Positions 2,632-33,400 of a stretch of 64,000 bases of DNA are shown in pieces. Within the stretch, counting starts at the first letter, position 1. The number at the start of each line of letters is the position of its first letter. The notes beneath the pieces were generated by a model. The model was not told the DNA's origin, did no database searches, and worked only from the letters and a program-made list of their open reading frames with translations. Location: assembly GCA_009914755.4 (NCBI GenBank), contig CP068257.2, positions 11,232,001 through 11,296,000 of the forward strand, in the 5' to 3' direction. The DNA is from the human T2T-CHM13v2.0 reference genome, Homo sapiens. The position numbers were made by a program, and so were the translations under genes.

Positions 2632-2648
2632 TCCCGTTTCCAACGAAA
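2632..2648 (-). promoter_or_regulatory. CENP-B box, monomer M9; recurs at +1870n
   Basis: 'tcccgtttccaacgaaa'. The core is intact. Confidence 0.9.
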
Positions 2649-2802
2649 TCGTTAGAGCTATCCAAATATCCAGTTACAGTTTCTACCAAAAGGGTGTTTC
2701 CAAATTGCTGCATCAAAAGAAAGGTTCAACTCTGTTAGTTGAGGACACACATCACAAAGAAGTTTGTGAGAATGCTTCTGTCTAGATTTTGTATGACGAT
2801 AT

Positions 2803-2819
2803 TCCCTTTTCCAACGATA
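2803..2819 (-). promoter_or_regulatory. Degenerate, presumably non-binding CENP-B box remnant, monomer M10; recurs at +1870n
   Basis: 'tcccttttccaacgata'. The CCCG core and the CGAA core are both lost (CCCT, CGAT), so essential contacts are missing. Confidence 0.75.
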
Positions 2820-11800: not shown

Positions 11801-14800
11801 TTGGAAGACGTTTCCTTTTCACCAAAGGCATCAAAGCGCTCCAAATGTCCACTTCCAGATTCTTCCAAAAGAGTGTTTCAAACGTGCTCAAAGTAAGGGA
11901 ATGTTCAACTCTGTGACTTGAATGCAGATATCACCAAGTAGTTTCTAATAGTGCTTCTGTCTACATTTTAGATGATGATATTCCCGTTTCCAACGAAATC
12001 GTTAGAGCTATCCAAATATCCAGTTACAGTTTCTACCAAAAGGGTGTTTCCAAATTGCTGCATCAAAAGAAAGGTTCAACTCTGTTAGTTGAGGACACAC
12101 ATCACAAAGAAGTTTGTGAGAATGCTTCTGTCTAGATTTTGTATGACGATATTCCCTTTTCCAACGATATCGTTAAAGCAATCTAAATATCAATTTGCAG
12201 AATCCACAAAAATAGAGTTTCAAAGCTGCTCTGTAAAAAGAAAGGTTCCACTCTGTTAGCTGAGTACACACATCACAAACTTGTTTCTGAGAATCCTTCT
12301 GTCTCGTTTTTATGGGAAGATATTTACTTTTCCACCGTAGGCATCAAAGCGCTCCAAATGTCCACATCCAGATACTCCAGAAAGAGTGTTTCAAACCTGC
12401 TCTATGAAAGGGAATCTTCAACTCTATGAGTTGAATGCAGACATCAGAAAGAAATTTCTGAGAATGCTGCTGTCTACCTTTTATTTGAATTCCCGCTTCC
12501 AACGAAATCCTCCAAGCTATCCAAATATCCACTTGCATTTTCCACAAAAAGAGTGTTTCAAAACTGCTCTATCAATAGAAATGTTCAACTCCTTTGGCTG
12601 GGTACACACATCACAAACAAGTTTCTGAGAATGCTTCTGTCTAGTTTTTATGGGAAGACGTTCCCTTTTTCACCAAAGGCATCAAAGCGCTCCAAATGTC
12701 CACTTCCAGACACTACAAAAAGAGTGTTTCCAACGTGCTCTAAGAAAGCGAATGTTCAACTCTGTGACTTGAATGCAGATATCACAAAGTAGTTTCTGAG
12801 AGGGCTTCTGTCTAGATTTTAGATGATGATATTCCCGTTTCCAACGAAATCATTAGAGCTATCCAAATATCCACTTACAGTTTCTACAAAAAGAGTGTTT
12901 CCAAACTGCTGCATCAAAAGAGAGGTTCCACTCTGTTAGCTGAGTACACACATCACAAACTTGTTTCTCAGAATCCTTCTGTCTCGTTTTTATGGGAAGA
13001 TATTTACTTTTCCACCGTAGGCATCAAAGCGCTCCAAATGTCCACATCCAGATACTCCAGAAAGAGTGTTTCAAACCTGCTCTATGAAAGGGAATGTTCA
13101 ACTCTATGAGTTGAATGCAGACATCAGAAAGAAATTTCTGAGAATGCTGCTGTCTACCTTTTATTTGAATTCCCGCTTCCAACGAAATCCTCCAAGCTAT
13201 CCAAATATCCACTTGCAGATTCCACAAAAAGAGTGTTTCAAAACTGCTCTCTATCAATGGCAAAGTTCAACTCTGTTAGTTGAGGACACATATCACCAAC
13301 AAGTTTCTGAGAATGCTTCTGTCTATTTTTTATGGGAAGATATTTCCTTTTTCACCGTAGGCGTCAAGGCGATCGAAATGTCCACTTCCACAAACTACAA
13401 AAAGAGTGTTTCAAACCTGCTCTATGAAAGGCCATGTTCATCTCTATGAGTTGAATGGAAATATCCGAAAGAAATTTCTGGGAATGCTGCTGTCTAGTGT
13501 TTATACGAATTCCCGCTTCCAACGAAATCCTCAAAGCAATCCAAATATCCACTTGCAGAATCCACAAAAAGAGTGTTTCAAAACTGCTCTATCAATAGAA
13601 AGGTTCAACTCTTTTAGTTGAGTACACACATCACGAACAAGTTTCTGAGAATGCTTCTGTCTGGCTTTTATTGGAAGACGTTTCCTTTTCACCAAAGGCA
13701 TCAAAGCGCTCCAAATGTCCACTTCCAGATTCTTCCAAAAGAGTGTTTCAAACGTGCTCAAAGTAAGGGAATGTTCAACTCTGTGACTTGAATGCAGATA
13801 TCACCAAGTAGTTTCTAATAGTGCTTCTGTCTACATTTTAGATGATGATATTCCCGTTTCCAACGAAATCGTTAGAGCTATCCAAATATCCAGTTACAGT
13901 TTCTACCAAAAGGGTGTTTCCAAATTGCTGCATCAAAAGAAAGGTTCAACTCTGTTAGTTGAGGACACACATCACAAAGAAGTTTGTGAGAATGCTTCTG
14001 TCTAGATTTTGTATGACGATATTCCCTTTTCCAACGATATCGTTAAAGCAATCTAAATATCAATTTGCAGAATCCACAAAAATAGAGTTTCAAAGCTGCT
14101 CTGTAAAAAGAAAGGTTCCACTCTTTTAGCTGAGTACACACATCACAAACTTGTTTCTGAGAATCCTTCTGTCTCGTTTTTATGGGAAGATATTTACTTT
14201 TCCACCGTAGGCACCAAAGCGCTCCAAATGTCCACATCCAGATACTCCAGAAAGAGTGTTTCAAACCTGCTCTATGAAAGGGAATCTTCAACTCTATGAG
14301 TTGAATGCAGACATCAGAAAGAAATTTCTGAGAATGCTGCTGTCTACCTTTTATTTGAATTCCCGCTTCCAACGAAATCCTCCAAGGTATCCAAATATCC
14401 ACTTGCATTTTCCACAACAAGAGTGTTTCAAAACTGCTCTATCAATAGAAATGTTCAACTCCTTTGGCTGGGTACACACATCACAAACAAGTTTCTGAGA
14501 ATGCTTCTGTCTAGTTTTTATGGGAAGACATTCCCTTTTTCACCAAAGGCATCAAAGCGCTCCAAATGTCCACTTCCAGACACTACAAAAAGAGTGTTTC
14601 CAACGTGCTCTAAGAAAGCGAATGTTCAACTCTGTGACTTGAATGCAGATATCACAAAGTAGTTTCTGAAAGTGCTTCTGTCTAGATTTTAGATGATGAT
14701 ATTCCCGTTTCCAACGAAATCATTAGAGCTATCCAAATATCCACTTACAGTTTCTACAAAAAGAGTGTTTCCAAACTGCTGCATCAAAAGAGAGGTTCCA

Positions 14801-15649
14801 CTCTGTTAGCTGAGTACACACATCACAAACTTGTTTCTCAGAATCCTTCTGTCTCGTTTTTATGGGAAGATATTTACTTTTTCACCGTAGGCATCAAAGC
14901 GCTCCAAATGTCCACATCCAGATACTCCAGAAAGAGTGTTTCAAACCTGCTCTATGAAAGGGAATCTTCAACTCTATGAGTTGAATGCAGACATCAGAAA
15001 GAAATTTCTGAGAATGCTGCTGTCTACCTTTTATTTGAATTCCCGCTTCCAACGAAATCCTCCAAGCTATCCAAATATCCACTTGCAGATTCCACAAAAA
15101 GAGTGTTTCAAAACTGCTCTCTATCAATGGCAAAGTTCAACTCTGTTAGTTGAGGACACATATCACCAACAAGTTTCTGAGAATGCTTCTGTCTATTTTT
15201 TATGGGAAGATATTTCCTTTTTCACCGTAGGCGTCAAGGCGATCGAAATGTCCACTTCCACAAACTACAAAAAGAGTGTTTCAAACCTGCTCTATGAAAG
15301 GCCATGTTCATCTCTATGAGTTGAATGGAAATATCCGAAAGAAATTTCTGGGAATGCTGCTGTCTAGTGTTTATACGAATTCCCGCTTCCAACGAAATCC
15401 TCAAAGCAATCCAAATATCCACTTGCAGAATCCACAAAAAGAGTGTTTCAAAACTGCTCTATCAATAGAAAGGTTCAACTCTTTTAGTTGAGTACACACA
15501 TCACGAACAAGTTTCTGAGAATGCTTCTGTCTGGCTTTTATTGGAAGACGTTTCCTTTTCACCAAAGGCATCAAAGCGCTCCAAATGTCCACTTCCAGAT
15601 TCTTCCAAAAGAGTGTTTCAAACGTGCTCAAAGTAAGGGAATGTTCAAC

Positions 15650-18600
15650 TCTGTGACTTGAATGCAGATATCACCAAGTAGTTTCTAATAGTGCTTCTGT
15701 CTAGATTTTAGATGATGATATTCCCGTTTCCAACGAAATCGCTAGAGCTATCCAAATATCCAGTTACAGTTTCTACCAAAAGGGTGTTTCCAAATTGCTG
15801 CATCAAAAGAAAGGTTCAACTCTGTTAGTTGAGGACACACATCACAAAGAAGTTTGTGAGAATGCTTCTGTCTAGATTTTGTATGACGATATTCCCTTTT
15901 CCAACGATATCGTTAAAGCAATCTAAATATCAATTTGCAGAATCCACAAAAATAGAGTTTCAAAGCTGCTCTGTAAAAAGAAAGGTTCCACTCTGTTAGC
16001 TGAGTACACACATCACAAACTTGTTTCTGAGAATCCTTCTGTCTCGTTTTTATGGGAAGATATTTACTTTTCCACCGTAGGCATCAAAGCGCTCCAAATG
16101 TCCACATCCAGATACTCCAGAAAGAGTGTTTCAAACCTGCTCTATGAAAGGGAATCTTCAACTCTATGAGTTGAATGCAGACATCAGAAAGAAATTTCTG
16201 AGAATGCTGCTGTCTACCTTTCATTTGAATTCCCGCTTCCAACGAAATCCTCCAAGCTATCCAAATATCCACCTGCATTTTCCACAACAAGAGTGTTTCA
16301 AAACTGCTCTATCAATAGAAATGTTCAACTCCTTTGGCTGGGTACACACATCACAAACAAGTTTCTGAGAATGCTTCTGTCTAGTTTTTATGGGAAGACG
16401 TTCCCTTTTTCACCAAAGGCATCAAAGCGCTCCAAATGTCCACTTCCAGACACTACAAAAAGAGTGTTTCCAACGTGCTCTAAGAAAGCGAATGTTCAAC
16501 TCTGTGACTTGAATGCAGATATCACAAAGTAGTTTCTGAGAGGGCTTCTGTCTAGATTTTAGATGATGATATTCCCGTTTCCAACGAAATCATTAGAGCT
16601 ATCCAAATATCCACTTACAGTTTCTACAAAAAGAGTGTTTCCAAACTGCTGCATCAAAAGAGAGGTTCCACTCTGTTAGCTGAGTACACACATCACAAAC
16701 TTGTTTCTCAGAATCCTTCTGTCTCGTTTTTATGGGAAGATATTTACTTTTTCACCGTAGGCATCAAAGCGCTCCAAATGTCCACATCCAGATACTCCAG
16801 AAAGAGTGTTTCAAACCTGCTCTATGAAAGGGAATGTTCAACTCTATGAGTTGAATGCAGACATCAGAAAGAAATTTCTGAGAATGCTGCTGTCTACCTT
16901 TTATTTGAATTCCCGCTTCCAACGAAATCCTCCAAGCTATCCAAATATCCACTTGCAGATTCCACAAAAAGAGTGTTTCAAAACTGCTCTCTATCAATGG
17001 CAAAGTTCAACTCTGTTAGTTGAGGACACATATCACCAACAAGTTTCTGAGAATGCTTCTGTCTATTTTTTAAGGGAAGATATTCCCTTTTTCACCGTAG
17101 GCGTCAAGGCGATCGAAATGTCCACTTTCACAAACTACAAAAAGAGTGTTTCAAACCTGCTCTATGAAAGGCCATGTTCATCTCTATGAGTTGAATGGAT
17201 ATATCCGAAAGAAATTTCTGGGAATGCTGCTGTCTAGTGTTTATACGAATTCCCGATTCCAACGAAATCCTCAAAGCAATCCAAATATCCACTTGCAGAA
17301 TCCACAAAAAGAGTGTTTCAAAACTGCTCTATCAATAGAAATGTTCAACTCTTTTAGTTGAGTACACACATCACGAACAAGTTTCTGAGAATGCTTCTGT
17401 CTGGCTTTTATTGGAAGACGTTTCCTTTTCACCAAAGGCATCAAAGCGCTCCATATGTCCACTTCCAGATTCTTCCAAAAGACTGTTTCAAACGTGCTCA
17501 AAGTAAGGGAATGTTCAACTCTGTGACTTGAATGCAGATATCACCAAGTAGTTTCTAATAGTGCTTCTGTCTAGATTTTAGATGATGATATTCCCGTTTC
17601 CAACGAAATCGTTAGAGCTATCCAAATATCCAGTTACAGTTTCTACCAAAAGGGTGTTTCCAAATTGCTGCATCAAAAGAAAGGTTCAACTCTGTTAGTT
17701 GAGGACACACATCACAAAGAAGTTTGTGAGAATGCTTCTGTCTAGATTTTGTATGACGATATTCCCTTTTCCAACGATATCGTTAAAGCAATCTAAATAT
17801 CAATTTGCAGAATCCACAAAAATAGAGTTTCAAAGCTGCTCTGTAAAAAGAAAGGTTCCACTCTGTTAGCTGAGTACACACATCACAAACTTGTTTCTGA
17901 GAATCCTTCTGTCTCGTTTTTATGGGAAGATATTTACTTTTCCACCGTAGGCATCAAAGCGCTCCAAATGTCCACATCCAGATACTCCAGAAAGAGTGTT
18001 TCAAACCTGCTCTATGAAAGGGAATCTTCAACTCTATGAGTTGAATGCAGACATCAGAAAGAAATTTCTGAGAATGCTGCTGTCTACCTTTTATTTGAAT
18101 TCCCGCTTCCAACGAAATCCTCCAAGCTATCCAAATATCCACCTGCATTTTCCACAAAAAGAGTGTTTCAAAACTGCTCTATCAATAGAAATGTTCAACT
18201 CCTTTGGCTGGGTACACACATCACAAACAAGTTTCTGAGAATGCTTCTGTCTAGTTTTTATGGGAAGACGTTCCCTTTTTCACCAAAGGCATCAAAGCGC
18301 TCCAAATGTCCACTTCCAGACACTACAAAAAGAGTGTTTCAAACGTGCTCTAAGAAAGCGAATGTTCAACTCTGTGACTTGAATGCAGATATCACAAAGT
18401 AGTTTCTGAGAGGGCTTCTGTCTAGATTTTAGATGATGATATTCCCGTTTCCAACGAAATCATTAGAGCTATCCAAATATCCACTTACAGTTTCTACAAA
18501 AAGAGTGTTTCCAAACTGCTGCATCAAAAGAGAGGTTCCACTCTGTTAGCTGAGTACACACATCACAAACTTGTTTCTCAGAATCCGTCTGTCTCGTTTT

Positions 18601-21256
18601 TATGGGAAGATATTTACTTTTTCACCGTAGGCATCAAAGCGCTCCAAATGTCCACATCCAGATACTCCAGAAAGAGTGTTTCAAACCTGCTCTATGAAAG
18701 GGAATGTTCAACTCTATGAGTTGAATGCAGACATCAGAAAGAAATTTCTGAGAATGCTGCTGTCTACCTTTTATTTGAATTCCCGCTTCCAACGAAATCC
18801 TCCAAGCTATCCAAATATCCACTTGCAGATTCCACAAAAAGAGTGTTTCAAAACTGCTCTCTATCAATGGCAAAGTTCAACTCTGTTAGTTGAGGACACA
18901 TATCACCAACAAGTTTCTGAGAATGCTTCTGTCTATTTTTTATGGGAAGATATTTCCTTTTTCACCGTAGGCGTCAAGGCGATCGAAATGTCCACTTCCA
19001 CAAACTACAAAAAGAGTGTTTCAAACCTGCTCTATGAAAGGCCATGTTCATCTCTATGAGTTGAATGGAAATATCCGAAAGAAATTTCTGGGAATGCTGC
19101 TGTCTAGTTTTTATATGAATTCCCGCTTCCAACGAAATCCTCAAAGCAATCCAAATATCCACTTGCAGAATCCACAAAAAGAGTGTTTCAAAACTGCTCT
19201 ATCAATAGAAAGGTTCAACTCTTTTAGTTGAGTACACACATCACAAACAAGTTTCTGAGAATGCTTCTGTCTGGCTTTTATTGGAAGACGTTTCCTTTTC
19301 ACCAAAGGCATCAAAGCGCTCCAAATGTCCACTTCCAGATTCTTCCAAAAGAGTGTTTCAAACGTGCTCAAAGTAAGGGAATGTTCAACTCTGTGACTTG
19401 AATGCAGATATCACCAAGTAGCTTCTAATAGTGCTTCTGTCTAGATTTTAGATGATGATATTCCCGTTTCCAACGAAATCGTTAGAGCTATCCAAATATC
19501 CAGTTACAGTTTCTACCAAAAGGGTGTTTCCAAATTGCTGCATCAAAAGAAAGGTTCAACTCTGTTAGTTGAGGACACACATCACAAAGAAGTTTGTGAG
19601 AATGCTTCTGTCTAGATTTTGTATGACGATATTCCCTTTTCCAACGATATCGTTAAAGCAATCTAAATATCAATTTGCAGAATCCACAAAAATAGAGTTT
19701 CAAAGCTGCTCTGTAAAAAGAAAGGTTCCACTCTGTTAGCTGAGTACACACATCACAAACTTGTTTCTGAGAATCCTTCTGTCTCGTTTTTATGGGAAGA
19801 TATTTACTTTTCCACCGTAGGCATCAAAGCGCTCCAAATGTCCACATCCAGATACTCCAGAACGAGTGTTTCAAACCTGCTCTATGAAAGGGAATCTTCA
19901 ACTCTATGAGTTGAATGCAGACATCAGAAAGAAATTTCTGAGAATGCTGCTGTCTACCTTTTATTTGAATTCCCGCTTCCAACGAAATCCTCCAAGCTAT
20001 CCAAATATCCACCTGCATTTTCCACAAAAAGAGTGTTTCAAAACTGCTCTATCAATAGAAATGTTCAACTCCTTTGGCTGGGTACACACATCACAAACAA
20101 GTTTCTGAGAATGCTTCTGTCTAGTTTTTATGGGAAGACGTTCCCTTTTTCACCAAAGGCATCAAAGCGCTCCAAATGTCCACTTCCAGACACTACAAAA
20201 AGAGTGTTTCAAACGTGCTCTAAGAAAGCGAATGTTCAACTCGGTGACTTGAATGCAGATATCACAAAGTAGTTTCTGAGAGGGCTTCTGTCTAGATTTT
20301 AGATGATGATATTCCCGTTTCCAACGAAATCAGAGCTATCCAAATATCCACTTACAGTTTCTACAAAAAGAGTGTTTCCAAACTGCTGCATCAAAAGAGA
20401 GGTTCCACTCTGTTAGCTGAGTACACACATCACAAACTTGTTTCTCAGATTCCTTCTGTCTCGTTTTTATGGGAAGATATTTACTTTTTCACCGTAGGCA
20501 TCAAAGCGCTCCAAATGTCCACATCCAGAAACTCCAGAAAGAGTGTTTCAAACCTGCTCTATGAAAGGGAATGTTCAACTCTATGAGTTGAATGCAGACA
20601 TCAGAAAGAAATTTCTGAGAATGCTGCTGTCTACCTTTTATTTGAATTCCCACTTCCAACGAAATCCTCCAAGCTATCCAAATATCCACTTGCAGATTCC
20701 ACAAAAAGAGTGTTTCAAAACTGCTCTCTATCAATGGCAAAGTTCAACTCTGTTAGTTGAGGACACATATCACCAACAAGTTTCTGAGAATGCTTCTGTC
20801 TATTTTTTATGGGAAGATATTTCCTTTTTCAGCGTAGGCGTCAAGGCGATCAAAATGTCCACTTCCACAAACTACCAAAAGAGTGTTTCAAACCTGCTCT
20901 ATGAAAGGCCATGTTCATCTCTATGAGTTGAATGGAAATATCCGAAAGAAATTTCTGGGAATGCTGCTGTCTAGTTTTTATATGAATTCCCGCTTCCACC
21001 GAAATCCTCAAAGCAATCCAAATATCCACTTGCAGAATCCACAAAAAGAGTGTTTCAAAACTGCGCTATCAATAGAAAGGTTCAACTCTTTTAGTTGAGT
21101 ACACACATCACAAACAAGTTTCTGAGAATGCTTCTGTCTGGCTTTTATTGGAAGACGTTTCCTTTTCACCAAAGGCATCAAAGCGCTCCAAATGTCCACT
21201 TCCAGATTCTTCCAAAAGAGTGTTTCAAACGTGCTCAAAGTAAGGGAATGTTCAAC
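15650..21256 (-). repeat. 5,607-bp super-repeat block (3 HOR units), copy 1 of 2
   Basis: Block-private variants recur exactly 5607 bp downstream. Examples are cgctagagc at 15740, ttttttaaggg at 17070, ggatatatccg at 17210, gctccatatg at 17450, aaagactg at 17480, ccacctgca at 18140, aatccgtctg at 18590, tttttatatg at 19100, gtagcttcta at 19420, cagaacgag at 19862, ctcggtgac at 20240, and the 3-bp deletion cgaaatcagagc at 20330. Confidence 0.85.
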
Positions 21257-24200
21257 TCTGTGACTTGAATGCAGATATCACCAAGTAGTTTCTAATAGTG
21301 CTTCTGTCTAGATTTTAGATGATGATATTCCCGTTTCCAACGAAATCGCTAGAGCTATCCAAATATCCAGTTACAGTTTCTACCAAAAGGGTGTTTCCAA
21401 ATTGCTGCATCAAAAGAAAGGTTCAACTCTGTTAGTTGAGGACACACATCACAAAGAAGTTTGTGAGAATGCTTCTGTCTAGATTTTGTATGACGATATT
21501 CCCTTTTCCAACGATATCGTTAAAGCAATCTAAATATCAATTTGCAGAATCCACAAAAATAGAGTTTCAAAGCTGCTCTGTAAAAAGAAAGGTTCCACTC
21601 TGTTAGCTGAGTACACACATCACAAACTTGTTTCTGAGAATCCTTCTGTCTCGTTTTTATGGGAAGATATTTACTTTTCCACCGTAGGCATCAAAGCGCT
21701 CCAAATGTCCACATCCAGATACTCCAGAAAGAGTGTTTCAAACCTGCTCTATGAAAGGGAATCTTCAACTCTATGAGTTGAATGCAGACATCAGAAAGAA
21801 ATTTCTGAGAATGCTGCTGTCTACCTTTCATTTGAATTCCCGCTTCCAACGAAATCCTCCAAGCTATCCAAATATCCACCTGCATTTTCCACAACAAGAG
21901 TGTTTCAAAACTGCTCTATCAATAGAAATGTTCAACTCCTTTGGCTGGGTACACACATCACAAACAAGTTTCTGAGAATGCTTCTGTCTAGTTTTTATGG
22001 GAAGACGTTCCCTTTTTCACCAAAGGCATCAAAGCGCTCCAAATGTCCACTTCCAGACACTACAAAAAGAGTGTTTCCAACGTGCTCTAAGAAAGCGAAT
22101 GTTCAACTCTGTGACTTGAATGCAGATATCACAAAGTAGTTTCTGAGAGGGCTTCTGTCTAGATTTTAGATGATGATATTCCCGTTTCCAACGAAATCAT
22201 TAGAGCTATCCAAATATCCACTTACAGTTTCTACAAAAAGAGTGTTTCCAAACTGCTGCATCAAAAGAGAGGTTCCACTCTGTTAGCTGAGTACACACAT
22301 CACAAACTTGTTTCTCAGAATCCTTCTGTCTCGTTTTTATGGGAAGATATTTACTTTTTCACCGTAGGCATCAAAGCGCTCCAAATGTCCACATCCAGAT
22401 ACTCCAGAAAGAGTGTTTCAAACCTGCTCTATGAAAGGGAATGTTCAACTCTATGAGTTGAATGCAGACATCAGAAAGAAATTTCTGAGAATGCTGCTGT
22501 CTACCTTTTATTTGAATTCCCGCTTCCAACGAAATCCTCCAAGCTATCCAAATATCCACTTGCAGATTCCACAAAAAGAGTGTTTCAAAACTGCTCTCTA
22601 TCAATGGCAAAGTTCAACTCTGTTAGTTGAGGACACATATCACCAACAAGTTTCTGAGAATGCTTCTGTCTATTTTTTAAGGGAAGATATTCCCTTTTTC
22701 ACCGTAGGCGTCAAGGCGATCGAAATGTCCACTTTCACAAACTACAAAAAGAGTGTTTCAAACCTGCTCTATGAAAGGCCATGTTCATCTCTATGAGTTG
22801 AATGGATATATCCGAAAGAAATTTCTGGGAATGCTGCTGTCTAGTGTTTATACGAATTCCCGATTCCAACGAAATCCTCAAAGCAATCCAAATATCCACT
22901 TGCAGAATCCACAAAAAGAGTGTTTCAAAACTGCTCTATCAATAGAAATGTTCAACTCTTTTAGTTGAGTACACACATCACGAACAAGTTTCTGAGAATG
23001 CTTCTGTCTGGCTTTTATTGGAAGACGTTTCCTTTTCACCAAAGGCATCAAAGCGCTCCATATGTCCACTTCCAGATTCTTCCAAAAGACTGTTTCAAAC
23101 GTGCTCAAAGTAAGGGAATGTTCAACTCTGTGACTTGAATGCAGATATCACCAAGTAGTTTCTAATAGTGCTTCTGTCTAGATTTTAGATGATGATATTC
23201 CCGTTTCCAACGAAATCGTTAGAGCTATCCAAATATCCAGTTACAGTTTCTACCAAAAGGGTGTTTCCAAATTGCTGCATCAAAAGAAAGGTTCAACTCT
23301 GTTAGTTGAGGACACACATCACAAAGAAGTTTGTGAGAATGCTTCTGTCTAGATTTTGTATGACGATATTCCCTTTTCCAACGATATCGTTAAAGCAATC
23401 TAAATATCAATTTGCAGAATCCACAAAAATAGAGTTTCAAAGCTGCTCTGTAAAAAGAAAGGTTCCACTCTGTTAGCTGAGTACACACATCACAAACTTG
23501 TTTCTGAGAATCCTTCTGTCTCGTTTTTATGGGAAGATATTTACTTTTCCACCGTAGGCATCAAAGCGCTCCAAATGTCCACATCCAGATACTCCAGAAA
23601 GAGTGTTTCAAACCTGCTCTATGAAAGGGAATCTTCAACTCTATGAGTTGAATGCAGACATCAGAAAGAAATTTCTGAGAATGCTGCTGTCTACCTTTTA
23701 TTTGAATTCCCGCTTCCAACGAAATCCTCCAAGCTATCCAAATATCCACCTGCATTTTCCACAAAAAGAGTGTTTCAAAACTGCTCTATCAATAGAAATG
23801 TTCAACTCCTTTGGCTGGGTACACACATCACAAACAAGTTTCTGAGAATGCTTCTGTCTAGTTTTTATGGGAAGACGTTCCCTTTTTCACCAAAGGCATC
23901 AAAGCGCTCCAAATGTCCACTTCCAGACACTACAAAAAGAGTGTTTCAAACGTGCTCTAAGAAAGCGAATGTTCAACTCTGTGACTTGAATGCAGATATC
24001 ACAAAGTAGTTTCTGAGAGGGCTTCTGTCTAGATTTTAGATGATGATATTCCCGTTTCCAACGAAATCATTAGAGCTATCCAAATATCCACTTACAGTTT
24101 CTACAAAAAGAGTGTTTCCAAACTGCTGCATCAAAAGAGAGGTTCCACTCTGTTAGCTGAGTACACACATCACAAACTTGTTTCTCAGAATCCGTCTGTC

Positions 24201-26863
24201 TCGTTTTTATGGGAAGATATTTACTTTTTCACCGTAGGCATCAAAGCGCTCCAAATGTCCACATCCAGATACTCCAGAAAGAGTGTTTCAAACCTGCTCT
24301 ATGAAAGGGAATGTTCAACTCTATGAGTTGAATGCAGACATCAGAAAGAAATTTCTGAGAATGCTGCTGTCTACCTTTTATTTGAATTCCCGCTTCCAAC
24401 GAAATCCTCCAAGCTATCCAAATATCCACTTGCAGATTCCACAAAAAGAGTGTTTCAAAACTGCTCTCTATCAATGGCAAAGTTCAACTCTGTTAGTTGA
24501 GGACACATATCACCAACAAGTTTCTGAGAATGCTTCTGTCTATTTTTTATGGGAAGATATTTCCTTTTTCACCGTAGGCGTCAAGGCGATCGAAATGTCC
24601 ACTTCCACAAACTACAAAAAGAGTGTTTCAAACCTGCTCTATGAAAGGCCATGTTCATCTCTATGAGTTGAATGGAAATATCCGAAAGAAATTTCTGGGA
24701 ATGCTGCTGTCTAGTTTTTATATGAATTCCCGCTTCCAACGAAATCCTCAAAGCAATCCAAATATCCACTTGCAGAATCCACAAAAAGAGTGTTTCAAAA
24801 CTGCTCTATCAATAGAAAGGTTCAACTCTTTTAGTTGAGTACACACATCACAAACAAGTTTCTGAGAATGCTTCTGTCTGGCTTTTATTGGAAGACGTTT
24901 CCTTTTCACCAAAGGCATCAAAGCGCTCCAAATGTCCACTTCCAGATTCTTCCAAAAGAGTGTTTCAAACGTGCTCAAAGTAAGGGAATGTTCAACTCTG
25001 TGACTTGAATGCAGATATCACCAAGTAGCTTCTAATAGTGCTTCTGTCTAGATTTTAGATGATGATATTCCCGTTTCCAACGAAATCGTTAGAGCTATCC
25101 AAATATCCAGTTACAGTTTCTACCAAAAGGGTGTTTCCAAATTGCTGCATCAAAAGAAAGGTTCAACTCTGTTAGTTGAGGACACACATCACAAAGAAGT
25201 TTGTGAGAATGCTTCTGTCTAGATTTTGTATGACGATATTCCCTTTTCCAACGATATCGTTAAAGCAATCTAAATATCAATTTGCAGAATCCACAAAAAT
25301 AGAGTTTCAAAGCTGCTCTGTAAAAAGAAAGGTTCCACTCTGTTAGCTGAGTACACACATCACAAACTTGTTTCTGAGAATCCTTCTGTCTCGTTTTTAT
25401 GGGAAGATATTTACTTTTCCACCGTAGGCATCAAAGCGCTCCAAATGTCCACATCCAGATACTCCAGAACGAGTGTTTCAAACCTGCTCTATGAAAGGGA
25501 ATCTTCAACTCTATGAGTTGAATGCAGACATCAGAAAGAAATTTCTGAGAATGCTGCTGTCTACCTTTTATTTGAATTCCCGCTTCCAACGAAATCCTCC
25601 AAGCTATCCAAATATCCACCTGCATTTTCCACAAAAAGAGTGTTTCAAAACTGCTCTATCAATAGAAATGTTCAACTCCTTTGGCTGGGTACACACATCA
25701 CAAACAAGTTTCTGAGAATGCTTCTGTCTAGTTTTTATGGGAAGACGTTCCCTTTTTCACCAAAGGCATCAAAGCGCTCCAAATGTCCACTTCCAGACAC
25801 TACAAAAAGAGTGTTTCAAACGTGCTCTAAGAAAGCGAATGTTCAACTCGGTGACTTGAATGCAGATATCACAAAGTAGTTTCTGAGAGGGCTTCTGTCT
25901 AGATTTTAGATGATGATATTCCCGTTTCCAACGAAATCAGAGCTATCCAAATATCCACTTACAGTTTCTACAAAAAGAGTGTTTCCAAACTGCTGCATCA
26001 AAAGAGAGGTTCCACTCTGTTAGCTGAGTACACACATCACAAACTTGTTTCTCAGATTCCTTCTGTCTCGTTTTTATGGGAAGATATTTACTTTTTCACC
26101 GTAGGCATCAAAGCGCTCCAAATGTCCACATCCAGAAACTCCAGAAAGAGTGTTTCAAACCTGCTCTATGAAAGGGAATGTTCAACTCTATGAGTTGAAT
26201 GCAGACATCAGAAAGAAATTTCTGAGAATGCTGCTGTCTACCTTTTATTTGAATTCCCACTTCCAACGAAATCCTCCAAGCTATCCAAATATCCACTTGC
26301 AGATTCCACAAAAAGAGTGTTTCAAAACTGCTCTCTATCAATGGCAAAGTTCAACTCTGTTAGTTGAGGACACATATCACCAACAAGTTTCTGAGAATGC
26401 TTCTGTCTATTTTTTATGGGAAGATATTTCCTTTTTCAGCGTAGGCGTCAAGGCGATCAAAATGTCCACTTCCACAAACTACCAAAAGAGTGTTTCAAAC
26501 CTGCTCTATGAAAGGCCATGTTCATCTCTATGAGTTGAATGGAAATATCCGAAAGAAATTTCTGGGAATGCTGCTGTCTAGTTTTTATATGAATTCCCGC
26601 TTCCACCGAAATCCTCAAAGCAATCCAAATATCCACTTGCAGAATCCACAAAAAGAGTGTTTCAAAACTGCGCTATCAATAGAAAGGTTCAACTCTTTTA
26701 GTTGAGTACACACATCACAAACAAGTTTCTGAGAATGCTTCTGTCTGGCTTTTATTGGAAGACGTTTCCTTTTCACCAAAGGCATCAAAGCGCTCCAAAT
26801 GTCCACTTCCAGATTCTTCCAAAAGAGTGTTTCAAACGTGCTCAAAGTACGGGAATGTTCAAC
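21257..26863 (-). repeat. 5,607-bp super-repeat block (3 HOR units), copy 2 of 2, essentially identical to copy 1
   Basis: Same variant set at +5607 (21350, 22680, 22810, 23060, 23090, 23750, 24195, 24715, 25027, 25470, 25850, 25935). I found one difference, near 26845 (gtacggg versus gtaaggg). Confidence 0.85.
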
Positions 26864-27499
26864 TCTGTGACTTGAATGCAGATATCACCAAGTAGTTTCT
26901 AATAGTGCTTCTGTCTAGATTTTAGATGATGATATTCCCGTTTCCAACGAAATCGTTAGAGCTATCCAAATATCCAGTTACAGTTTCTACCAAAAGGGTG
27001 TTTCCAAATTGCTGCATCAAAAGAAAGGTTCAACTCTGTTAGTTGAGGACACACATCACAAAGAAGTTTGTGAGAATGCTTCTGTCTAGATTTTGTATGA
27101 CGATATTCCCTTTTCCAACGATATCGTTAAAGCAATCTAAATATCAATTTGCAGAATCCACAAAAATAGAGTTTCAAAGCTGCTCTGTAAAAAGAAAGGT
27201 TCCACTCTGTTAGCTGAGTACACACATCACAAACTTGTTTCTGAGAATCCTTCTGTCTCGTTTTTATGGGAAGATATTTACTTTTCCACCGTAGGCATCA
27301 AAGCGCTCCAAATGTCCACATCCAGATACTCCAGAAGGAGTGTTTCAAACCTGCTCTATGAAAGGGAATCTTCAACTCTATGAGTTGAATGCAGACATCA
27401 GAAAGAAATTTCTGAGAATGCTGCTGTCTACCTTTTATTTGAATTCCCGCTTCCAACGAAATCCTCCAAGCTATCCAAATATCCACTTGCATTTTCCAC

Positions 27500-30400
27500 A
27501 ACAAGAGTGTTTCAAAACTGCTCTATCAATAGAAATGTTCAACTCCTTTGGCTGGGTACACACATCACAAACAAGTTTCTGAGAATGCTTCTGTCTAGTT
27601 TTTATGGGAAGACATTCCCTTTTTCACCAAAGGCATCAAAGCGCTCCAAATGTCCACTTCCAGACACTACAAAAAGAGTGTTTCAAACGTGCTCTAAGAA
27701 AGCGAATGTTCAACTCTGTGACTTGAATGCAGATATCACAAAGTAGTTTCTGAGAGTGCTTCTGTCTAGATTTTAGATGATGATATTCCCGTTTCCAACG
27801 AAATCATTAGAGCTATCCAAATATCCACTTACAGTTTCTACAAAAAGAGTGTTTCCAAACTGCTGCATCAAAAGAGAGGTTCCACTCTGTTAGCTGAGTA
27901 CACACATCACAAACTTGTTTCTCAGAATCCTTCTGTCTCGTTTTTATGGGAAGATATTTACTTTTTCACCGTAGGCATCAAAGCGCTCCAAATGTCCACA
28001 TCCAGATACTCCAGAAAGAGTGTTTCAAACCTGCTCTATGAAAGGGAATCTTCAACTCTATGAGTTGAATGCAGACATCAGAAAGAAATTTCTGAGAATG
28101 CTGCTGTCTACCTTTTATTTGAATTCCCGCTTCCAACGAAATCCTCCAAGCTATCCAAATATCCACTTGCAGATTCCACAAAAAGAGTGTTTCAAAACTG
28201 CTCTCTATCAATGGCAAAGTTCAACTCTGTTAGTTGAGGACACATATCACCAACAAGTTTCTGAGAATGCTTCTGTCTATTTTTTATGGGAAGATATTTC
28301 CTTTTTCACCGTAGGCGTCAAGGCGATCGAAATGTCCACTTCCACAAACTACAAAAAGCGTGTTTCAAACCTGCTCTATGAAAGGCCATGTTCATCTCTA
28401 TGAGTTGAATGGAAATATCCGAAAGAAATTTCTGGGAATGCTGCTGTCTAGTGTTTATACGAATTCCCGCTTCCAACGAAATCCTCAAAGCAATCCAAAT
28501 ATCCACTTGCAGAATCCACAAAAAGAGTGTTTCAAAACTGCTCTATCAATAGAAAGGTTCAACTCTTTTAGTTGAGTACACACATCACGAACAAGTTTCT
28601 GAGAATGCTTCTGTCTGGCTTTTATTGGAAGACGTTTCCTTTTCACCAAAGGCATCAAAGCGCTCCAAATGTCCACTTCCAGATTCTTCCAAAAGAGTGT
28701 TTCAAACGTGGTCGAAGTAAGGGAATGTTCAACTCTGTGACTTGAATGCAGATATCACCAAGTAGTTTCTAATAGTGCTTCTGTCTACATTTTGATGATG
28801 ATATTCCCGTTTCCAACGAAATCGTTAGAGCTATCCAAATATCCAGTTAGTTTCTACCAAAAGGGTGTTTCCAAATTGCTGCATCAAAAGAAAGGTTCAA
28901 CTCTGTTAGTTGAGGACACACATCACAAAGAAGTTTGTGAGAATGCTTCTGTCTAGATTTTGTATGACGATATTCCCTTTTCCAATGATATCGTTAAAGC
29001 AATCTAAATATCAATTTGCAGAATCCACAAAAATAGAGTTTCAAAGCTGCTCTGTAAAAAGAAAGGTTCCACTCTGTTAGCTGAGTACACACATCACAAA
29101 CTTGTTTCTGAGAATCCTTCTGTCTCGTTTTTATGGGAAGATATTTACTTTTTCACCGTAGGCATCAAAGCGCTCCAAATGTCCACATCCAGATACTCCA
29201 GAACGAGTGTTTCAAACCTACTCTATGAAAGGGAATCTTCAACTCTATGAGTTGAATGCAGACATCAGAAAGAAATTTCTGAGAATGCTGCTGTCTACCT
29301 TTTATTTGAATTCCCGCTTCCAACGAAATCCTCCAAGCTATCCAAATATCCACTTGCATTTTCCACAACAAGAGTGTTTCAAAACTGCTCTATCAATAGA
29401 AATGTTCAACTCCTTTGGCTGGGTACACACATCACAAACAAGTTTCTGAGAATGCTTCTGTCTAGTTTTTATGGGAAGACATTCCCTTTTTCACCAAAGG
29501 CATCAAAGCGCTCCAAATGTCCACTTCCAGACACTACAAAAAGAGTGTTTCAAACGTGCTCTAAGAAAGCGAATGTTCAACTCTGTGACTTGAATGCAGA
29601 TATCACAAAGTAGTTTCTGAGAGTGCTTCTGTCTAGACTTTAGATGATGATATTCCCGTTTCCAACGAAATCATTAGAGCTATCCAAATATCCACTTACA
29701 GTTTCTACAAAAAGAGTGTTTCCAAACTGCTGCATGAAAAGAGAGGTTCCACTCTGTTAGCTGAGTACACACATCACAAACTTGTTTCTCAGAATCCGTC
29801 TGTCTCGTTTTTATGGGAAGATATTTACTTTTTCACCGTAGGCATCAAAGCGCTCCAAATGTCCACATCCAGATACTCCAGAAAGAGTGTTTCAAACCTG
29901 CTCTATGAAAGGGAATCTTCAACTCTATGAGTTGAATGCAGACATCAGAAAGAAATTTCTGAGAATGCTGCTGTCTACCTTTTATTTGAATTCCCGCTTC
30001 CAACGAAATCCTCCAAGCTATCCAAATATCCACTTGCAGATTCCACAAAAAGAGTGTTTCAAAACTGCTCTCTATCAATGGCAAAGTTCAACTCTGTTAG
30101 TTGAGGACACATATCACCAACAAGTTTCTGAGAATGCTTCTGTCTATTTTTTATGGGAAGATATTTCCTTTTTCACCGTAGGCGTCAAGGCGATCGAAAT
30201 GTCCACTTCCACAAACTACAAAAAGCGTGTTTCAAACCTGCTCTATGAAAGGCCATGTTCATCTCTATGAGTTGAATGGAAATATCCGAAAGAAATTTCT
30301 GGGAATGCTGCTGTCTAGTGTTTATACGAATTCCCGCTTCCAACGAAATCCTCAAAGCAATCCAAATATCCACTTGCAGAATCCACAAAAAGAGTGTTTC

Positions 30401-33400
30401 AAAACTGCTCTATCAATAGAAAGGTTCAACTCTTTTAGTTGAGTACACACATCACGAACAAGTTTCTGAGAATGCTTCTGTCTGGCTTTTATTGGAAGAC
30501 GTTTCCTTTTCACCAAAGGCATCAAAGCGCTCCAAATGTCCACTTCCAGATTCTTCCAAAAGAGTGTTTCAAACGTGGTCGAAGTAAGGGAATGTTCAAC
30601 TCTGTGACTTGAATGCAGATATCACCAAGTAGTTTCTAATAGTGCTTCTGTCTACATTTTGATGATGATATTCCCGTTTCCAACGAAATCGTTAGAGCTA
30701 TCCAAATATCCAGTTAGTTTCTACCAAAAGGGTGTTTCCAAATTGCTGCATCAAAAGAAAGGTTCAACTCTGTTAGTTGAGGACACACATCACAAAGAAG
30801 TTTGTGAGAATGCTTCTGTCTAGATTTTGTATGACGATATTCCCTTTTCCAATGATATCGTTAAAGCAATCTAAATATCAATTTGCAGAATCCACAAAAA
30901 TAGAGTTTCAAAGCTGCTCTGTAAAAAGAAAGGTTCCACTCTGTTAGCTGAGTACACACATCACAAACTTGTTTCTGAGAATCCTTCTGTCTCGTTTTTA
31001 TGGGAAGATATTTACTTTTTCACCGTAGGCATCAAAGCGCTCCAAATGTCCACATCCAGATACTCCAGAACGAGTGTTTCAAACCTACTCTATGAAAGGG
31101 AATCTTCAACTCTATGAGTTGAATGCAGACATCAGAAAGAAATTTCTGAGAATGCTGCTGTCTACCTTTTATTTGAATTCCCGCTTCCAACGAAATCCTC
31201 CAAGCTATCCAAATATCCACTTGCATTTTCCACAACAAGAGTGTTTCAAAACTGCTCTATCAATAGAAATGTTCAACTCCTTTGGCTGGGTACACACATC
31301 ACAAACAAGTTTCTGAGAATGCTTCTGTCTAGTTTTTATGGGAAGACATTCCCTTTTTCACCAAAGGCATCAAAGCGCTCCAAATGTCCACTTCCAGACA
31401 CTACAAAAAGAGTGTTTCAAACGTGCTCTAAGAAAGCGAATGTTCAACTCTGTGACTTGAATGCAGATATCACAAAGTAGTTTCTGAGAGTGCTTCTGTC
31501 TAGACTTTAGATGATGATATTCCCGTTTCCAACGAAATCATTAGAGCTATCCAAATATCCACTTACAGTTTCTACAAAAAGAGTGTTTCCAAACTGCTGC
31601 ATGAAAAGAGAGGTTCCACTCTGTTAGCTGAGTACACACATCACAAACTTGTTTCTCAGAATCCGTCTGTCTCGTTTTTATGGGAAGATATTTACTTTTT
31701 CACCGTAGGCATCAAAGCGCTCCAAATGTCCACATCCAGATACTCCAGAAAGAGTGTTTCAAACCTGCTCTATGAAAGGGAATCTTCAACTCTATGAGTT
31801 GAATGCAGACATCAGAAAGAAATTTCTGAGAATGCTGCTGTCTACCTTTTATTTGAATTCCCGCTTCCAACGAAATCCTCCAAGCTATCCAAATATCCAC
31901 TTGCAGATTCCACAAAAAGAGTGTTTCAAAACTGCTCTCTATCAATGGCAAAGTTCAACTCTGTTAGTTGAGGACACATATCACCAACAAGTTTCTGAGA
32001 ATGCTTCTGTCTATTTTTTATGGGAAGATATTTCCTTTTTCACCGTAGGCGTCAAGGCGATCGAAATGTCCACTTCCACAAACTACAAAAAGCGTGTTTC
32101 AAACCTGCTCTATGAAAGGCCATGTTCATCTCTATGAGTTGAATGGAAATATCCGAAAGAAATTTCTGGGAATGCTGCTGTCTAGTGTTTATACGAATTC
32201 CCGCTTCCAACGAAATCCTCAAAGCAATCCAAATATCCACTTGCAGAATCCACAAAAAGAGTGTTTCAAAACTGCTCTATCAATAGAAAGGTTCAACTCT
32301 TTTAGTTGAGTACACACATCACGAACAAGTTTCTGAGAATGCTTCTGTCTGGCTTTTATTGGAAGACGTTTCCTTTTCACCAAAGGCATCAAAGCGCTCC
32401 AAATGTCCACTTCCAGATTCTTCCAAAAGAGTGTTTCAAACGTGGTCGAAGTAAGGGAATGTTCAACTCTGTGACTTGAATGCAGATATCACCAAGTAGT
32501 TTCTAATAGTGCTTCTGTCTACATTTTGATGATGATATTCCCGTTTCCAACGAAATCGTTAGAGCTATCCAAATATCCAGTTAGTTTCTACCAAAAGGGT
32601 GTTTCCAAATTGCTGCATCAAAAGAAAGGTTCAACTCTGTTAGTTGAGGACACACATCACAAAGAAGTTTGTGAGAATGCTTCTGTCTAGATTTTGTATG
32701 ACGATATTCCCTTTTCCAATGATATCGTTAAAGCAATCTAAATATCAATTTGCAGAATCCACAAAAATAGAGTTTCAAAGCTGCTCTGTAAAAAGAAAGG
32801 TTCCACTCTGTTAGCTGAGTACACACATCACAAACTTGTTTCTGAGAATCCTTCTGTCTCGTTTTTATGGGAAGATATTTACTTTTTCACCGTAGGCATC
32901 AAAGCGCTCCAAATGTCCACATCCAGATACTCCAGAACGAGTGTTTCAAACCTACTCTATGAAAGGGAATCTTCAACTCTATGAGTTGAATGCAGACATC
33001 AGAAAGAAATTTCTGAGAATGCTGCTGTCTACCTTTTATTTGAATTCCCGCTTCCAACGAAATCCTCCAAGCTATCCAAATATCCACTTGCATTTTCCAC
33101 AACAAGAGTGTTTCAAAACTGCTCTATCAATAGAAATGTTCAACTCCTTTGGCTGGGTACACACATCACAAACAAGTTTCTGAGAATGCTTCTGTCTAGT
33201 TTTTATGGGAAGACATTCCCTTTTTCACCAAAGGCATCAAAGCGCTCCAAATGTCCACTTCCAGACACTACAAAAAGAGTGTTTCAAACGTGCTCTAAGA
33301 AAGCGAATGTTCAACTCTGTGACTTGAATGCAGATATCACAAAGTAGTTTCTGAGAGTGCTTCTGTCTAGACTTTAGATGATGATATTCCCGTTTCCAAC
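27500..33400 (-). repeat. Three consecutive near-identical 1,867-bp variant HOR units (locally homogenised subtype)
   Basis: Shared private variants at +1867: aaaagcgtg (28358, 30225, 32092); ccgtaggcatcaaagcgctc with the HRVGL variant (29165, 31032, 32899); acctactc (29218, ...); 1-bp deletion ctacattttgatg (28790, ...); 2-bp deletion atccagttagtttc (28845, ...). Confidence 0.8.

What the first reader, a model, noticed from the sequence alone, without database searches (positions are those of the whole stretch)
15650..26863. Perfect tandem duplication of a 5.6-kb three-HOR super-unit
More than twelve block-private variants, including a 3-bp deletion, recur at exactly +5607 bp. This indicates a very recent unequal-exchange duplication of a 3-HOR cassette. 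It adds a fourth hierarchical level (monomer, HOR, super-HOR) and can serve as a marker of the most recently expanding part of the array.
Basis: seen in the sequence. Interest (0 to 1): 0.6.

Follow-up and report, generated by a model that had tools for sequence, protein, structure and literature searches.

The report
Recent 3-HOR duplication in centromeric satellite
A 5.6-kb block of three neighbouring repeat units in the human chromosome 13/21-type centromeric alpha-satellite array really is present twice in a row without a single change, but this is the ordinary, well-documented way such arrays grow, and it is neither a new level of organisation nor the youngest part of this window.

Summary
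**Observation confirmed.** The window is one alpha-satellite array with a 1870-bp 11-monomer HOR. It matches the published T2T-CHM13 chr21 11-mer (D21Z1/D13Z1 family) in all 10 monomer types and in their order.

- Shifted 144 bp left, 15506-21112 and 21113-26719 are identical. Exact period-5607 identity spans 15506-26849 (2.02 copies).
- 22 private variant events, including the 3-bp deletion, recur at +5607. Unrelated HOR pairs in the window differ at a median of 15 sites.

**Interpretation partly supported.**

- It is most likely a recent, in-register, homology-mediated gain of three HORs (B|CDE|CDE'|F). The junction lies in a 130-236-bp identity tract in the last monomer. With published centromere SNV rates it is younger than about 1,000-4,000 generations.
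- It is not a new hierarchical level. With only two copies it fails both published superHOR definitions. Multi-HOR gains of 0.3-19 kb have been seen de novo in pedigrees.
- It does not mark the most recently expanding part. Positions 1-14124 hold at least 7.55 perfectly identical HORs, and 21 of 30 HORs have a near-identical neighbour.

Ordinary; low interest.

The parts
15506..21112 (.). Copy 1 of the exact 5607-bp duplication, in the frame where the two copies are identical. It holds the tail of HOR H8 (144 bp), H9 (type C), H10 (type D) and most of H11 (type E).
   Evidence: String identity with 21113-26719; exact lag-5607 run 15506-21242.
21113..26719 (.). Copy 2 of the exact 5607-bp duplication.
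   Evidence: Identical to 15506-21112.
26720..26849 (.). A 130-bp continuation of the exact periodicity, homologous to 15506-15635 and 21113-21242. This is the identity tract in monomer m11 within which the exchange junction must lie if the C at 26850 pre-dated the event. If that C is a later mutation, the permitted interval extends to column 92 of the next HOR (236 bp).
   Evidence: Run limits. Flanking informative sites: column 1726 (15505 G vs 21112/26719 A) and column 1857 (15636/21243 A vs 26850 C).
15650..17519 (-). H9, HOR type C (1870 bp), with 10 private SNVs. Identical to H12 (21257-23126). The canonical alpha-satellite / CENP-B box orientation is the minus strand.
17520..19389 (-). 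H10, HOR type D (1870 bp). Identical to H13 (23127-24996). It has no private variants of its own and is 8 differences from the A-type HOR.
19390..21256 (-). H11, HOR type E (1867 bp), with 11 private SNVs plus a 3-bp deletion after 20331. It lost the CENP-B box core in monomer m8 (20652 G>A, CGGG to TGGG on the box strand). It is one base different from H14 (24997-26863).
21257..26863 (-). The 3-bp deletion recurs after 25938 and the CENP-B box loss recurs at 26259.
26850..26850 (.). It is C here and A in all 29 other HOR copies, including H8 (15636) and H11 (21243). The change creates a CpG (GTAAGGG to GTACGGG).
   Evidence: The allele is absent from the 67 external contigs.
13780..15649 (-). 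H8 (type B), the left flank. Its last 144 bp are identical to the tail of H11, which provides the homology for the out-of-register exchange.
26864..28733 (-). H15 (type F), the right flank. Periodicity ends here: H15 differs from H12 at 19 alignment columns, the first at column 93.

Best explanation
The window is a homogeneous stretch of the human alpha-satellite 11-monomer HOR array of the chromosome 13/21 family, probably chr21. An ancestral arrangement B-C-D-E'-F underwent one out-of-register, homology-directed event offset by exactly three HOR units. This could have been unequal sister-chromatid exchange, or an equivalent break-repair or replication-restart template switch.

The left chromatid was read up to a point in the last monomer (m11) of E'. 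Synthesis or exchange then continued from the homologous point in the tail of B, giving B-C-D-E-C-D-E'-F.

The junction leaves no scar because the B and E' tails are identical over at least 130 bp there. The middle unit 'E' is then a hybrid (E' head plus B tail). That accounts for the single A/C difference at 21243/26850 without any mutation after the event; alternatively, that C is one later mutation.

Nothing has changed in the 2 x 5.6 kb since, so the event is young. It is one of several such local gains in this window (periods of 1, 2, 3 and 4 HORs). It has no function of its own beyond adding 5.6 kb, 33 monomers and 14 CENP-B boxes to the array.

**Shown:** the identity, the period, the private variants, the junction interval and the family membership.
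**Inferred:** the direction (a gain rather than a conversion), the molecular pathway and the age.
For: **Family.**
- 171-bp array and 1870-bp 11-mer HOR.
- All 10 monomer types of the published T2T-CHM13 chr21 11-mer consensus match with 0-2 mismatches each, in the same cyclic order.
- The 'Cen21' ChIP primers hit every HOR and give a 195-bp amplicon.

**Duplication.**
- The exact lag-5607 run is 5737 bp and the two copies are identical.
- 22 private events recur.
- The period is an integer number of HORs (1870+1870+1867) and in register.

**Junction.** The informative sites at columns 1726 and 1857 bracket a 130-bp tract where B, E and E' are identical.

**Duplication rather than conversion.** A duplication forces a run of at least 5607 bp. 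A conversion tract with length uniform on 0-5607 bp reaches this in only 5.2% of simulations that use the window's own variant spacing.

**Such events are directly observed.**
- De novo centromeric SVs occur in 12% of transmissions, always as integer HOR multiples, from 680 bp to 12,228 bp (PMC12240836).
- 43 de novo SVs of 340 bp to 19.4 kb were found in HOR arrays (PMC12822586).
- Duplications of 4, 3 or 2 HOR copies are described in the chr21 11-mer array (PMC12385485).

**Age.** With 0-1 differences and published HOR SNV rates of 1.0e-7 to 4.0e-7 per bp per generation, the 95% upper bounds are about 660-4,200 generations.
Against: - A single haplotype cannot show that the array gained length. 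The ancestral single-copy state is inferred, not observed.
- The pathway (sister-chromatid exchange, BIR or template switching, or intrachromatid events) leaves the same product and cannot be resolved.
- The age bound depends on the SNV rate. With the low read-based rate of 3.3e-8 it relaxes to about 8,000-13,000 generations.
- Read-level support for the assembly could not be examined.
Confidence: 0.8

Rival explanations
1. Long-tract gene conversion, or BIR-like copying without a net length change. Three pre-existing HORs next to C-D-E were overwritten by a copy of C-D-E about 5.6 kb long, so the array did not expand.
For: - It produces the same local sequence.
- Conversion-like homogenisation is invoked for satellite arrays in PMC7732198 and for Yq12 satellites in PMC12240836.
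- The window shows mosaic HORs, such as H18 with a G-type head and a D/I-like tail.
Against: - The tract would have to equal the 5607-bp offset almost exactly. Simulation gives P = 0.052 for a run of at least 5607 bp and 0.021 for a run of 5607-5737 bp.
- From general knowledge, typical conversion tracts are far shorter than 5.6 kb.
- De novo events observed in pedigrees are length changes of integer HOR number.
Confidence: 0.08
2. Assembly artefact. The assembler falsely duplicated a 5.6-kb satellite segment, or mis-set the copy number, so the genome really contains one C-D-E triplet.
For: - Perfect identity is what a false duplication would give.
- Satellite arrays are the hardest regions to assemble.
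- No read data are available here.
Against: - The whole structure with both unique flanks (B...F, about 13 kb) is short enough to be spanned by single HiFi or ONT reads (inference).
- The flanks and the three units carry many distinguishing variants, so the region is not ambiguous in the way the 14-kb run of identical A units is.
- The structural arithmetic of the window matches coordinates published for T2T-CHM13 chr21, a heavily validated assembly: a 3234-bp spacing and a -17-bp cumulative indel deficit.
Confidence: 0.07
3. A nascent true super-HOR. The 33-monomer C-D-E cassette is a new repeat unit being amplified, a new periodicity replacing the 11-mer locally, and this haplotype has caught it at copy number two.
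For: - Multi-HOR units do become established in this very HOR family: the CCCV pattern has variant copies spaced 7136 bp apart in CHM13 chr21.
- They also occupy large fractions of the chr8, chr9 and chr15 arrays in HG002.
Against: - There are only 2.02 copies.
- The cassette-specific 57-mer and 69-mer occur exactly twice each in the window.
- The E-specific 57-mer is absent from the metagenome and genome contig collections, which do contain this satellite.
- Neighbouring blocks with other periods are equally young.
Confidence: 0.05

Closest known systems
De novo and recent integer-HOR insertions and deletions in human alpha-satellite arrays (CEPH 1463 pedigree, PMC12240836; global centromere survey, PMC12822586)
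   Same: - A gain of an integer number of HOR units.
- Kilobase scale: 5.6 kb sits inside the observed ranges of 0.68-12.2 kb and 0.34-19.4 kb.
- In register, with no junction scar, inside a highly identical array.
   Different: - Here the event is inferred from one haplotype; it was not seen across a transmission.
- The parental single-copy state is not available.
Zones of recent or nested duplication and HOR-haplotype structure in T2T-CHM13 centromeres (Altemose et al., bioRxiv 10.1101/2021.07.12.452052)
   Same: Runs of HOR copies sharing private variants, and exact-match dot-plot blocks that reveal recent local duplications inside active arrays.
   Different: - Those analyses concern whole arrays and relate the duplication zones to CENP-A and the CDR.
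- This is one small event, and its relation to the kinetochore site is unknown.
The CCCV multi-HOR pattern in the T2T-CHM13 chr21 11-mer array (PMC12385485)
   Same: - The same HOR family.
- A unit made of several HOR copies repeated in tandem, attributed by the authors to duplications of 4, 3 or 2 HOR copies.
   Different: - That pattern is marked by a structural variant (a 9-mer) and recurs about 10 times, with spacings of 7136, 5266 and 3398 bp.
- The cassette here is marked only by SNVs and a 3-bp deletion, and it has two copies.
superHORs (CentromereArchitect, PMC8336445; HG002 superHOR annotation, PMC13477032)
   Same: The idea of a repeat unit composed of several HORs, at least one of which is distinguishable from the others.
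   Different: It fails both operational definitions. It has fewer than 3 consecutive repeats, and in the monomer alphabet there is no difference between the units.

Membership tests
Alpha satellite DNA | Tandem monomers of about 171 bp, AT-rich, with 60-85% identity between monomer types | tested here: met
   TRF finds period 171 with 376.5 copies over 3-63987. GC is 0.38-0.39. The monomer identity matrix runs from 67% to 99%.
Alpha satellite DNA | CENP-B box (nTTCGnnnnAnnCGGGn) in a subset of monomers | tested here: met
   There are five boxes per HOR (m1, m4, m6, m8, m10). All 158 boxes in the window lie on the minus strand.
Chromosome 13/21 11-mer HOR (D13Z1/D21Z1, alpha21-I) | HOR of 11 monomers made of 10 monomer types, one type used twice four positions apart, giving sub-periods of 4 and 7 monomers | tested here: met
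   The period is 1870 bp, i.e. 11 monomers. m3 and m7 are 99% identical. Lags 680 and 1190 are prominent. This matches the description in PMC12385485.
Chromosome 13/21 11-mer HOR (D13Z1/D21Z1, alpha21-I) | Sequence match to the published consensus monomers, in the published order | tested here: met
   Types t1-t10 from Supplementary Table S1 of PMC12385485 align to the reverse complement of the window HOR with 0-2 mismatches each. The other differences are gap columns, probably PDF character loss. The cyclic order is t1..t8, t5, t9, t10. The Cen21 primer pair matches every HOR.
Chromosome 13/21 11-mer HOR (D13Z1/D21Z1, alpha21-I) | Assignment to chr21 rather than chr13 | tested here: inconclusive
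   No human reference was available. Indirect support for CHM13 chr21 at about 11.232-11.296 Mb comes from two numbers: the 3234-bp spacing of the first structural variants, and a cumulative -17-bp indel deficit, both matching coordinates in the Fig. 3d legend of PMC12385485. No chr13 data were compared.
superHOR (HG002 annotation, PMC13477032) | An n-mer of HORs (n = 2-9) in which at least one HOR has a HOR-haplotype different from the others | tested here: met
   n = 3. C, D and E differ from each other by 13-27 events.
superHOR (HG002 annotation, PMC13477032) | [quoted passage not shown] | tested here: not met
   There are 2.02 copies. The definition is quoted.
superHOR (CentromereArchitect, PMC8336445) | A recurrent string of different HORs as defined in the monomer alphabet | tested here: not met
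   All six units decompose to the same canonical string 1-2-...-11. In that scheme they form a run a^6, not a superHOR.
Recent tandem duplication by out-of-register homologous exchange in a HOR array | Period equal to an integer number of HORs, in register, with a scar-free junction inside shared identity | tested here: met
   5607 = 1870+1870+1867 bp. The junction is confined to a 130-236-bp identity tract in m11.
Recent tandem duplication by out-of-register homologous exchange in a HOR array | Copies far more alike than unrelated HORs of the same array | tested here: met
   0-1 differences in 5607 bp, compared with a mean of 0.86% (median 15 per 1870 bp) for unrelated pairs.
Recent tandem duplication by out-of-register homologous exchange in a HOR array | Length gain relative to an ancestral or sister haplotype | not testable with these tools
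   No human assemblies could be searched. The contaminant contigs span at most about 2 clean HOR copies.

The most novel reading that the evidence does not exclude
The C-D-E triplet is the seed of a new 33-monomer super-repeat that is actively amplifying in some chr21 (or chr13) centromere haplotypes. It may lie at or next to the kinetochore-forming (CDR) zone. If so, its copy number would vary between closely related haplotypes and would track the currently expanding core of the array.
Probability: 0.05. Interest if true: 0.3.

Novelty: already known. Interest (0 to 1): 0.1.

Why it matters
It matters little beyond bookkeeping. It is a clean, base-resolved example of how alpha-satellite arrays change length: an in-register gain of several HOR units with the junction mapped to a 130-236-bp identity tract. 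The E-to-C junction, a pair of diagnostic k-mers 263 bp apart, could serve as a haplotype-specific marker for this chr21/13 centromere lineage in pangenome comparisons. It opens no new question. The phenomenon, its size range, its per-generation rate and the superHOR concept are all already published.

Tried and rejected
1. **Lag-29905 peak.** It looked like a 30-kb duplication. It is only phase: 16 x 1870 minus the 15 bp of intervening deletions. The HOR distance matrix shows no lag-16 similarity.

2. **First guesses at the HOR family.** The +851-bp anchor matches suggested a pentameric SF3 11-mer such as chr1 D1Z5. The 4/7-mer sub-periods suggested chr8 D8Z2. Both were dropped once the monomer matrix showed alternating two-type structure and the published chr21 consensus matched.

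3. **Searches for the E-specific 57-mer.** Metagenome contigs and GTDB genome contigs gave 0 hits. The consensus control found 60 + 7 contaminant contigs. These are collapsed short-read contigs or array-edge pieces with at most about 2 clean HOR copies, and L021 is noisy at 94-98% identity. They cannot test cassette copy number. They were useful only to show that 20 of 22 private alleles are absent elsewhere.

4. **Does the cassette differ functionally through CENP-B boxes?** The E type lacks one box, but 10 of 30 HORs lack one for other reasons. This is not distinctive.

5. **Is the single A/C difference a post-duplication mutation or a junction footprint?** The C is private to H14 and A is the consensus, so the window alone cannot decide.

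6. **Not run.** Protein, RNA-family and structure tools were not used, because the region is non-coding satellite DNA.
Full report
**What the window is.**
- Tandem Repeats Finder reports a single 171-bp array over 3-63987 (376.5 copies), with flat composition at about 39% GC.
- Ungapped self-identity peaks at lag 1870 and its multiples.
Their lengths are 1870 bp, except H11 and H14 (1867), H16-H18 (1867) and H27 (1868).
- The 11 monomers alternate between two sequence types. Five CENP-B boxes sit in m1, m4, m6, m8 and m10, all on the minus strand. m3 and m7 are 99% identical, which explains the 680- and 1190-bp sub-periods.

**Which satellite it is.**
- A motif I recalled as a published ChIP primer was checked against the literature. 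The pair GTCTACCTTTTATTTGAATTCCCG / AGGGAATGTCTTCCCATAAAAACT is listed as 'Cen21' or 'chromosome 21 alpha-satellite' in PMC4694756 and PMC7679138. It matches every HOR copy here and gives a 195-bp amplicon.
- More decisively, the ten monomer-type consensus sequences of the T2T-CHM13 chr21 '11mer HOR' (Supplementary Table S1 of PMC12385485) each align to the reverse complement of the window's HOR with 0-2 mismatches. The cyclic order is the published one: t1-t2-...-t8-t5-t9-t10.
- That paper also describes 10 monomer types in 11 positions and sub-periods of 4 and 7. It reports pairwise HOR divergence with mean 0.90% and minimum 0.00%. The window gives a mean of 0.86%.
- Membership in the chr13/21 11-mer HOR family is therefore tested and met.
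- Chr13 versus chr21 cannot be decided directly. However, two numbers from the Fig. 3d legend of that paper fit the window exactly:
  - The last two listed variant copies in CHM13 chr21 are 3,234 bp apart. So are the window's first and third structural variants (56773 and 60007).
  - The preceding variant-free stretch equals 1190 + 38 x 1870 - 17 bp, and -17 bp is exactly the summed indel deficit of the window's 30 canonical copies.
- This suggests the window is about chr21:11,232,167-11,296,166 of T2T-CHM13, or a structurally identical haplotype. I treat that as probable, not proven.

**Checking the observation.**
- The exact lag-5607 run extends from 15506 to 21242, which is 5737 bp and longer than one period. 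In the frame 15506-21112 / 21113-26719 the two copies are therefore identical. The exactly periodic span is 15506-26849, or 2.02 copies.
- The alignment of all 30 HORs has 93 variable columns. Ten SNVs are private to H9/H12. Eleven SNVs plus a 3-bp deletion are private to H11/H14. One further variant (column 624) is shared by all six cassette units and otherwise occurs only in H30.
- The three cassette members are mutually distinct (13-27 events apart). Unrelated HOR pairs differ at a median of 15 sites.
- A shuffle of HOR order reproduces such a pattern in 181 of 200,000 trials.
- Of the 22 private alleles, 20 are absent from 67 independent human-contaminant contigs that carry the consensus allele at those sites. 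The other two are each seen once.

**Anatomy of the junction.**
- Write the HOR types as A x7, B, [C D E], [C D E'], F, G, G, H, I, [J K L M], [J' K' L' N], L'', O, P.
- The periodic run is bounded on the left by column 1726 (15505 G in B; 21112 and 26719 A in E/E'). It is bounded on the right by column 1857 (15636 and 21243 A; 26850 C).
- Under an out-of-register exchange offset by three HORs, the product is B-C-D-[E' head + B tail]-C-D-E'-F.
- B and E' are identical between columns 1727 and 1856. A switch anywhere in that 130-bp tract of monomer m11 reproduces the sequence exactly, with zero later mutations, and the C at 26850 is then an older private variant of E'.
- If the C instead arose afterwards, the junction may lie anywhere from column 1727 to column 92 of the next unit (236 bp).
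- The C is private to H14 and A is the consensus, so the window cannot decide between these two readings.

**Duplication or conversion.**
- A tandem duplication forces the exact lag run to be at least one period long.
- A conversion tract of arbitrary length does not. Using the window's own variant spacing (median 86 bp, mean 146 bp of exact identity from a random point between unrelated HORs) and a tract length uniform on 0-5607 bp, only 5.2% of simulated conversions give a run of at least 5607 bp.
- Conversion tracts longer than 5 kb are rare (general knowledge), and observed de novo centromeric events are length changes. Together with the simulation, this favours a true gain.

**Age.**
- There are 0 or 1 differences across 2 x 5607 bp. 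Published SNV rates for centromeric and HOR sequence are:
  - 3.27e-8 (read-based) and 1.01e-7 (assembly-based) per bp per generation (PMC12240836);
  - 2.6e-7 (pedigree, active HORs) and 4.03e-7 (pan-centromere) (PMC12822586).
- The 95% upper bounds range from about 660 to about 13,000 generations. With the three HOR-specific rates they are about 660-4,200 generations.
- 'Very recent' is fair on an evolutionary scale, but the event need not be de novo.

**Is it special within the window?** No.
- Positions 1-14124 form an exact period-1870 run of at least 7.55 copies, truncated by the window edge.
- 27932-33650 is an exact period-1867 run of 3.06 copies.
- H20-H22 recur as H24-H26 with one difference each, forming a 4-HOR cassette of period 7480 bp. 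H28 repeats H26 at lag 2.
- In all, 21 of 30 HORs have a partner with at most 1 difference within four units.
- Within the resolution of zero observed mutations, the A-run and the G-G pair are as young as the C-D-E duplication, and the A-run involves more copies.
- C and E are long-branch HOR types (10 and 12 private events). The cassette is therefore a recent copy of old variants. It does not mark 'the most recently expanding part'.

**Comparison with what is known.**
- Multi-HOR gains and losses are directly documented. Eighteen de novo SVs were found in 150 centromere transmissions. All the HOR-array events were integer HOR multiples, from 680 bp to 12,228 bp (PMC12240836). A further 43 de novo SVs of 340 bp to 19.4 kb were found in HOR arrays (PMC12822586).
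- Zones of recent, nested duplication and HOR-haplotypes are described genome-wide by Altemose et al..
[quoted passage not shown] The listed coordinates show a variant recurring every 7136 bp (3 x 1870 + 1526), which is a real multi-copy 4-HOR super-repeat.
- The term superHOR has two operational definitions:
  - CentromereArchitect defines it in the monomer alphabet. There the six units are indistinguishable.
[quoted passage not shown] This cassette has two copies.
- So it behaves like the first step of a superHOR, but it is not a member by either definition. The 'fourth hierarchical level' is neither new nor established here.

**Verdict.**
- The two broader claims do not hold.
- The feature is an ordinary instance of a well-characterised process. 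Interest is low (0.1) and novelty is 'already known'.
- The main residual uncertainties cannot be resolved with the tools available: assembly correctness, gain versus conversion, and chr21 versus chr13. Long reads and pangenome assemblies would settle them directly.

Noticed in passing
window 1-14124: An exact period-1870 run of at least 7.55 perfectly identical 11-mer HOR copies (type A), truncated by the window start. If the CHM13 chr21 placement is right, up to about 8 more canonical copies lie to the left. This is the largest perfectly homogeneous block in the window. Its copy number is harder for an assembler to get right than that of the 3-HOR cassette.
   Followed up: partly
window 27932-33650: An exact period-1867 run (3.06 copies) covering H16=H17 and the head of H18. 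These units are 3 bp shorter through small deletions in m1. H18 is a mosaic, G-type up to about column 1068 and D/I-like afterwards, which suggests an earlier exchange or conversion.
   Followed up: partly
window 36205-53032: An older 4-HOR cassette. H20-H21-H22-H23 recurs as H24-H25-H26-H27 with 1, 1, 1 and 7-8 differences (period 7480 bp). H28 repeats H26 at lag 2 with 2 differences. Together with the other blocks, this shows duplication periods of 1, 2, 3 and 4 HORs within 57 kb.
   Followed up: partly
window 56773-64000: The canonical 11-mer register breaks down here. The units are a 7-mer (m1-m7, 56773-57961), a 12-mer with an extra m2-like monomer (57962-60006, 2045 bp), an 8-mer (60007-61366) and a 7-mer 1-2-3-8-9-10-11 (61367-62551). 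After that the monomers are only 86-95% identical to the canonical ones. It looks like the transition to an older or flanking layer of the array.
   Followed up: partly
window 56773 and 60007; whole window: The spacing of 3234 bp and the cumulative indel deficit of -17 bp over the canonical copies exactly fit the variant-copy coordinates listed for T2T-CHM13 chr21 (11,216,408; 11,288,641; 11,291,875) in PMC12385485. The window is probably about chr21:11.232-11.296 Mb of CHM13 or a structurally identical haplotype.
   Followed up: partly
window 20652 and 26259 (H11, H14); also H21, H22, H25-H28 (m10) and H30 (m4): Ten of the 30 HOR copies have lost one of their five CENP-B box cores, through three independent lineages of point changes. 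An example is column 1266 G>A, which turns CGGG into TGGG on the box strand in the E-type HOR. The duplicated cassette therefore carries 14 boxes per triplet, not 15.
   Followed up: yes
HOR alignment columns 114/128/134/146, 423, 751, 1726 (for example window 803-835 in H1): At several shared variant sites, the allele that is the majority in this window is the minority among 67 independent human-contaminant contigs. This suggests the window's HOR-haplotype is not the most abundant 13/21 version in human genomes. It could reflect chr13 versus chr21, or differences between layers of the array.
   Followed up: no
HOR alignment column 380 (m3) in H22, H23, H26-H28: A single G>C change makes monomer m3 identical to m7 at the one site that distinguishes them, so m3 classifies as m7. 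The same allele is present in 36 of 67 external contigs. It is possibly intra-HOR conversion between the two copies of the repeated monomer type.
   Followed up: no
loci L061-L067 (genome contigs) and L001-L060 (metagenome contigs): Human chr13/21 alpha satellite is present as contamination in records labelled as bacterial genomes: Streptomyces kurssanovii JCM 4388, Streptosporangium violaceochromogenes JCM 3281, Actinomadura cremea JCM 3308, Campylobacter concisus, a Solemya gill symbiont and two MAGs. It is also present in 60 metagenome contigs, including marine and soil samples.
   Followed up: partly
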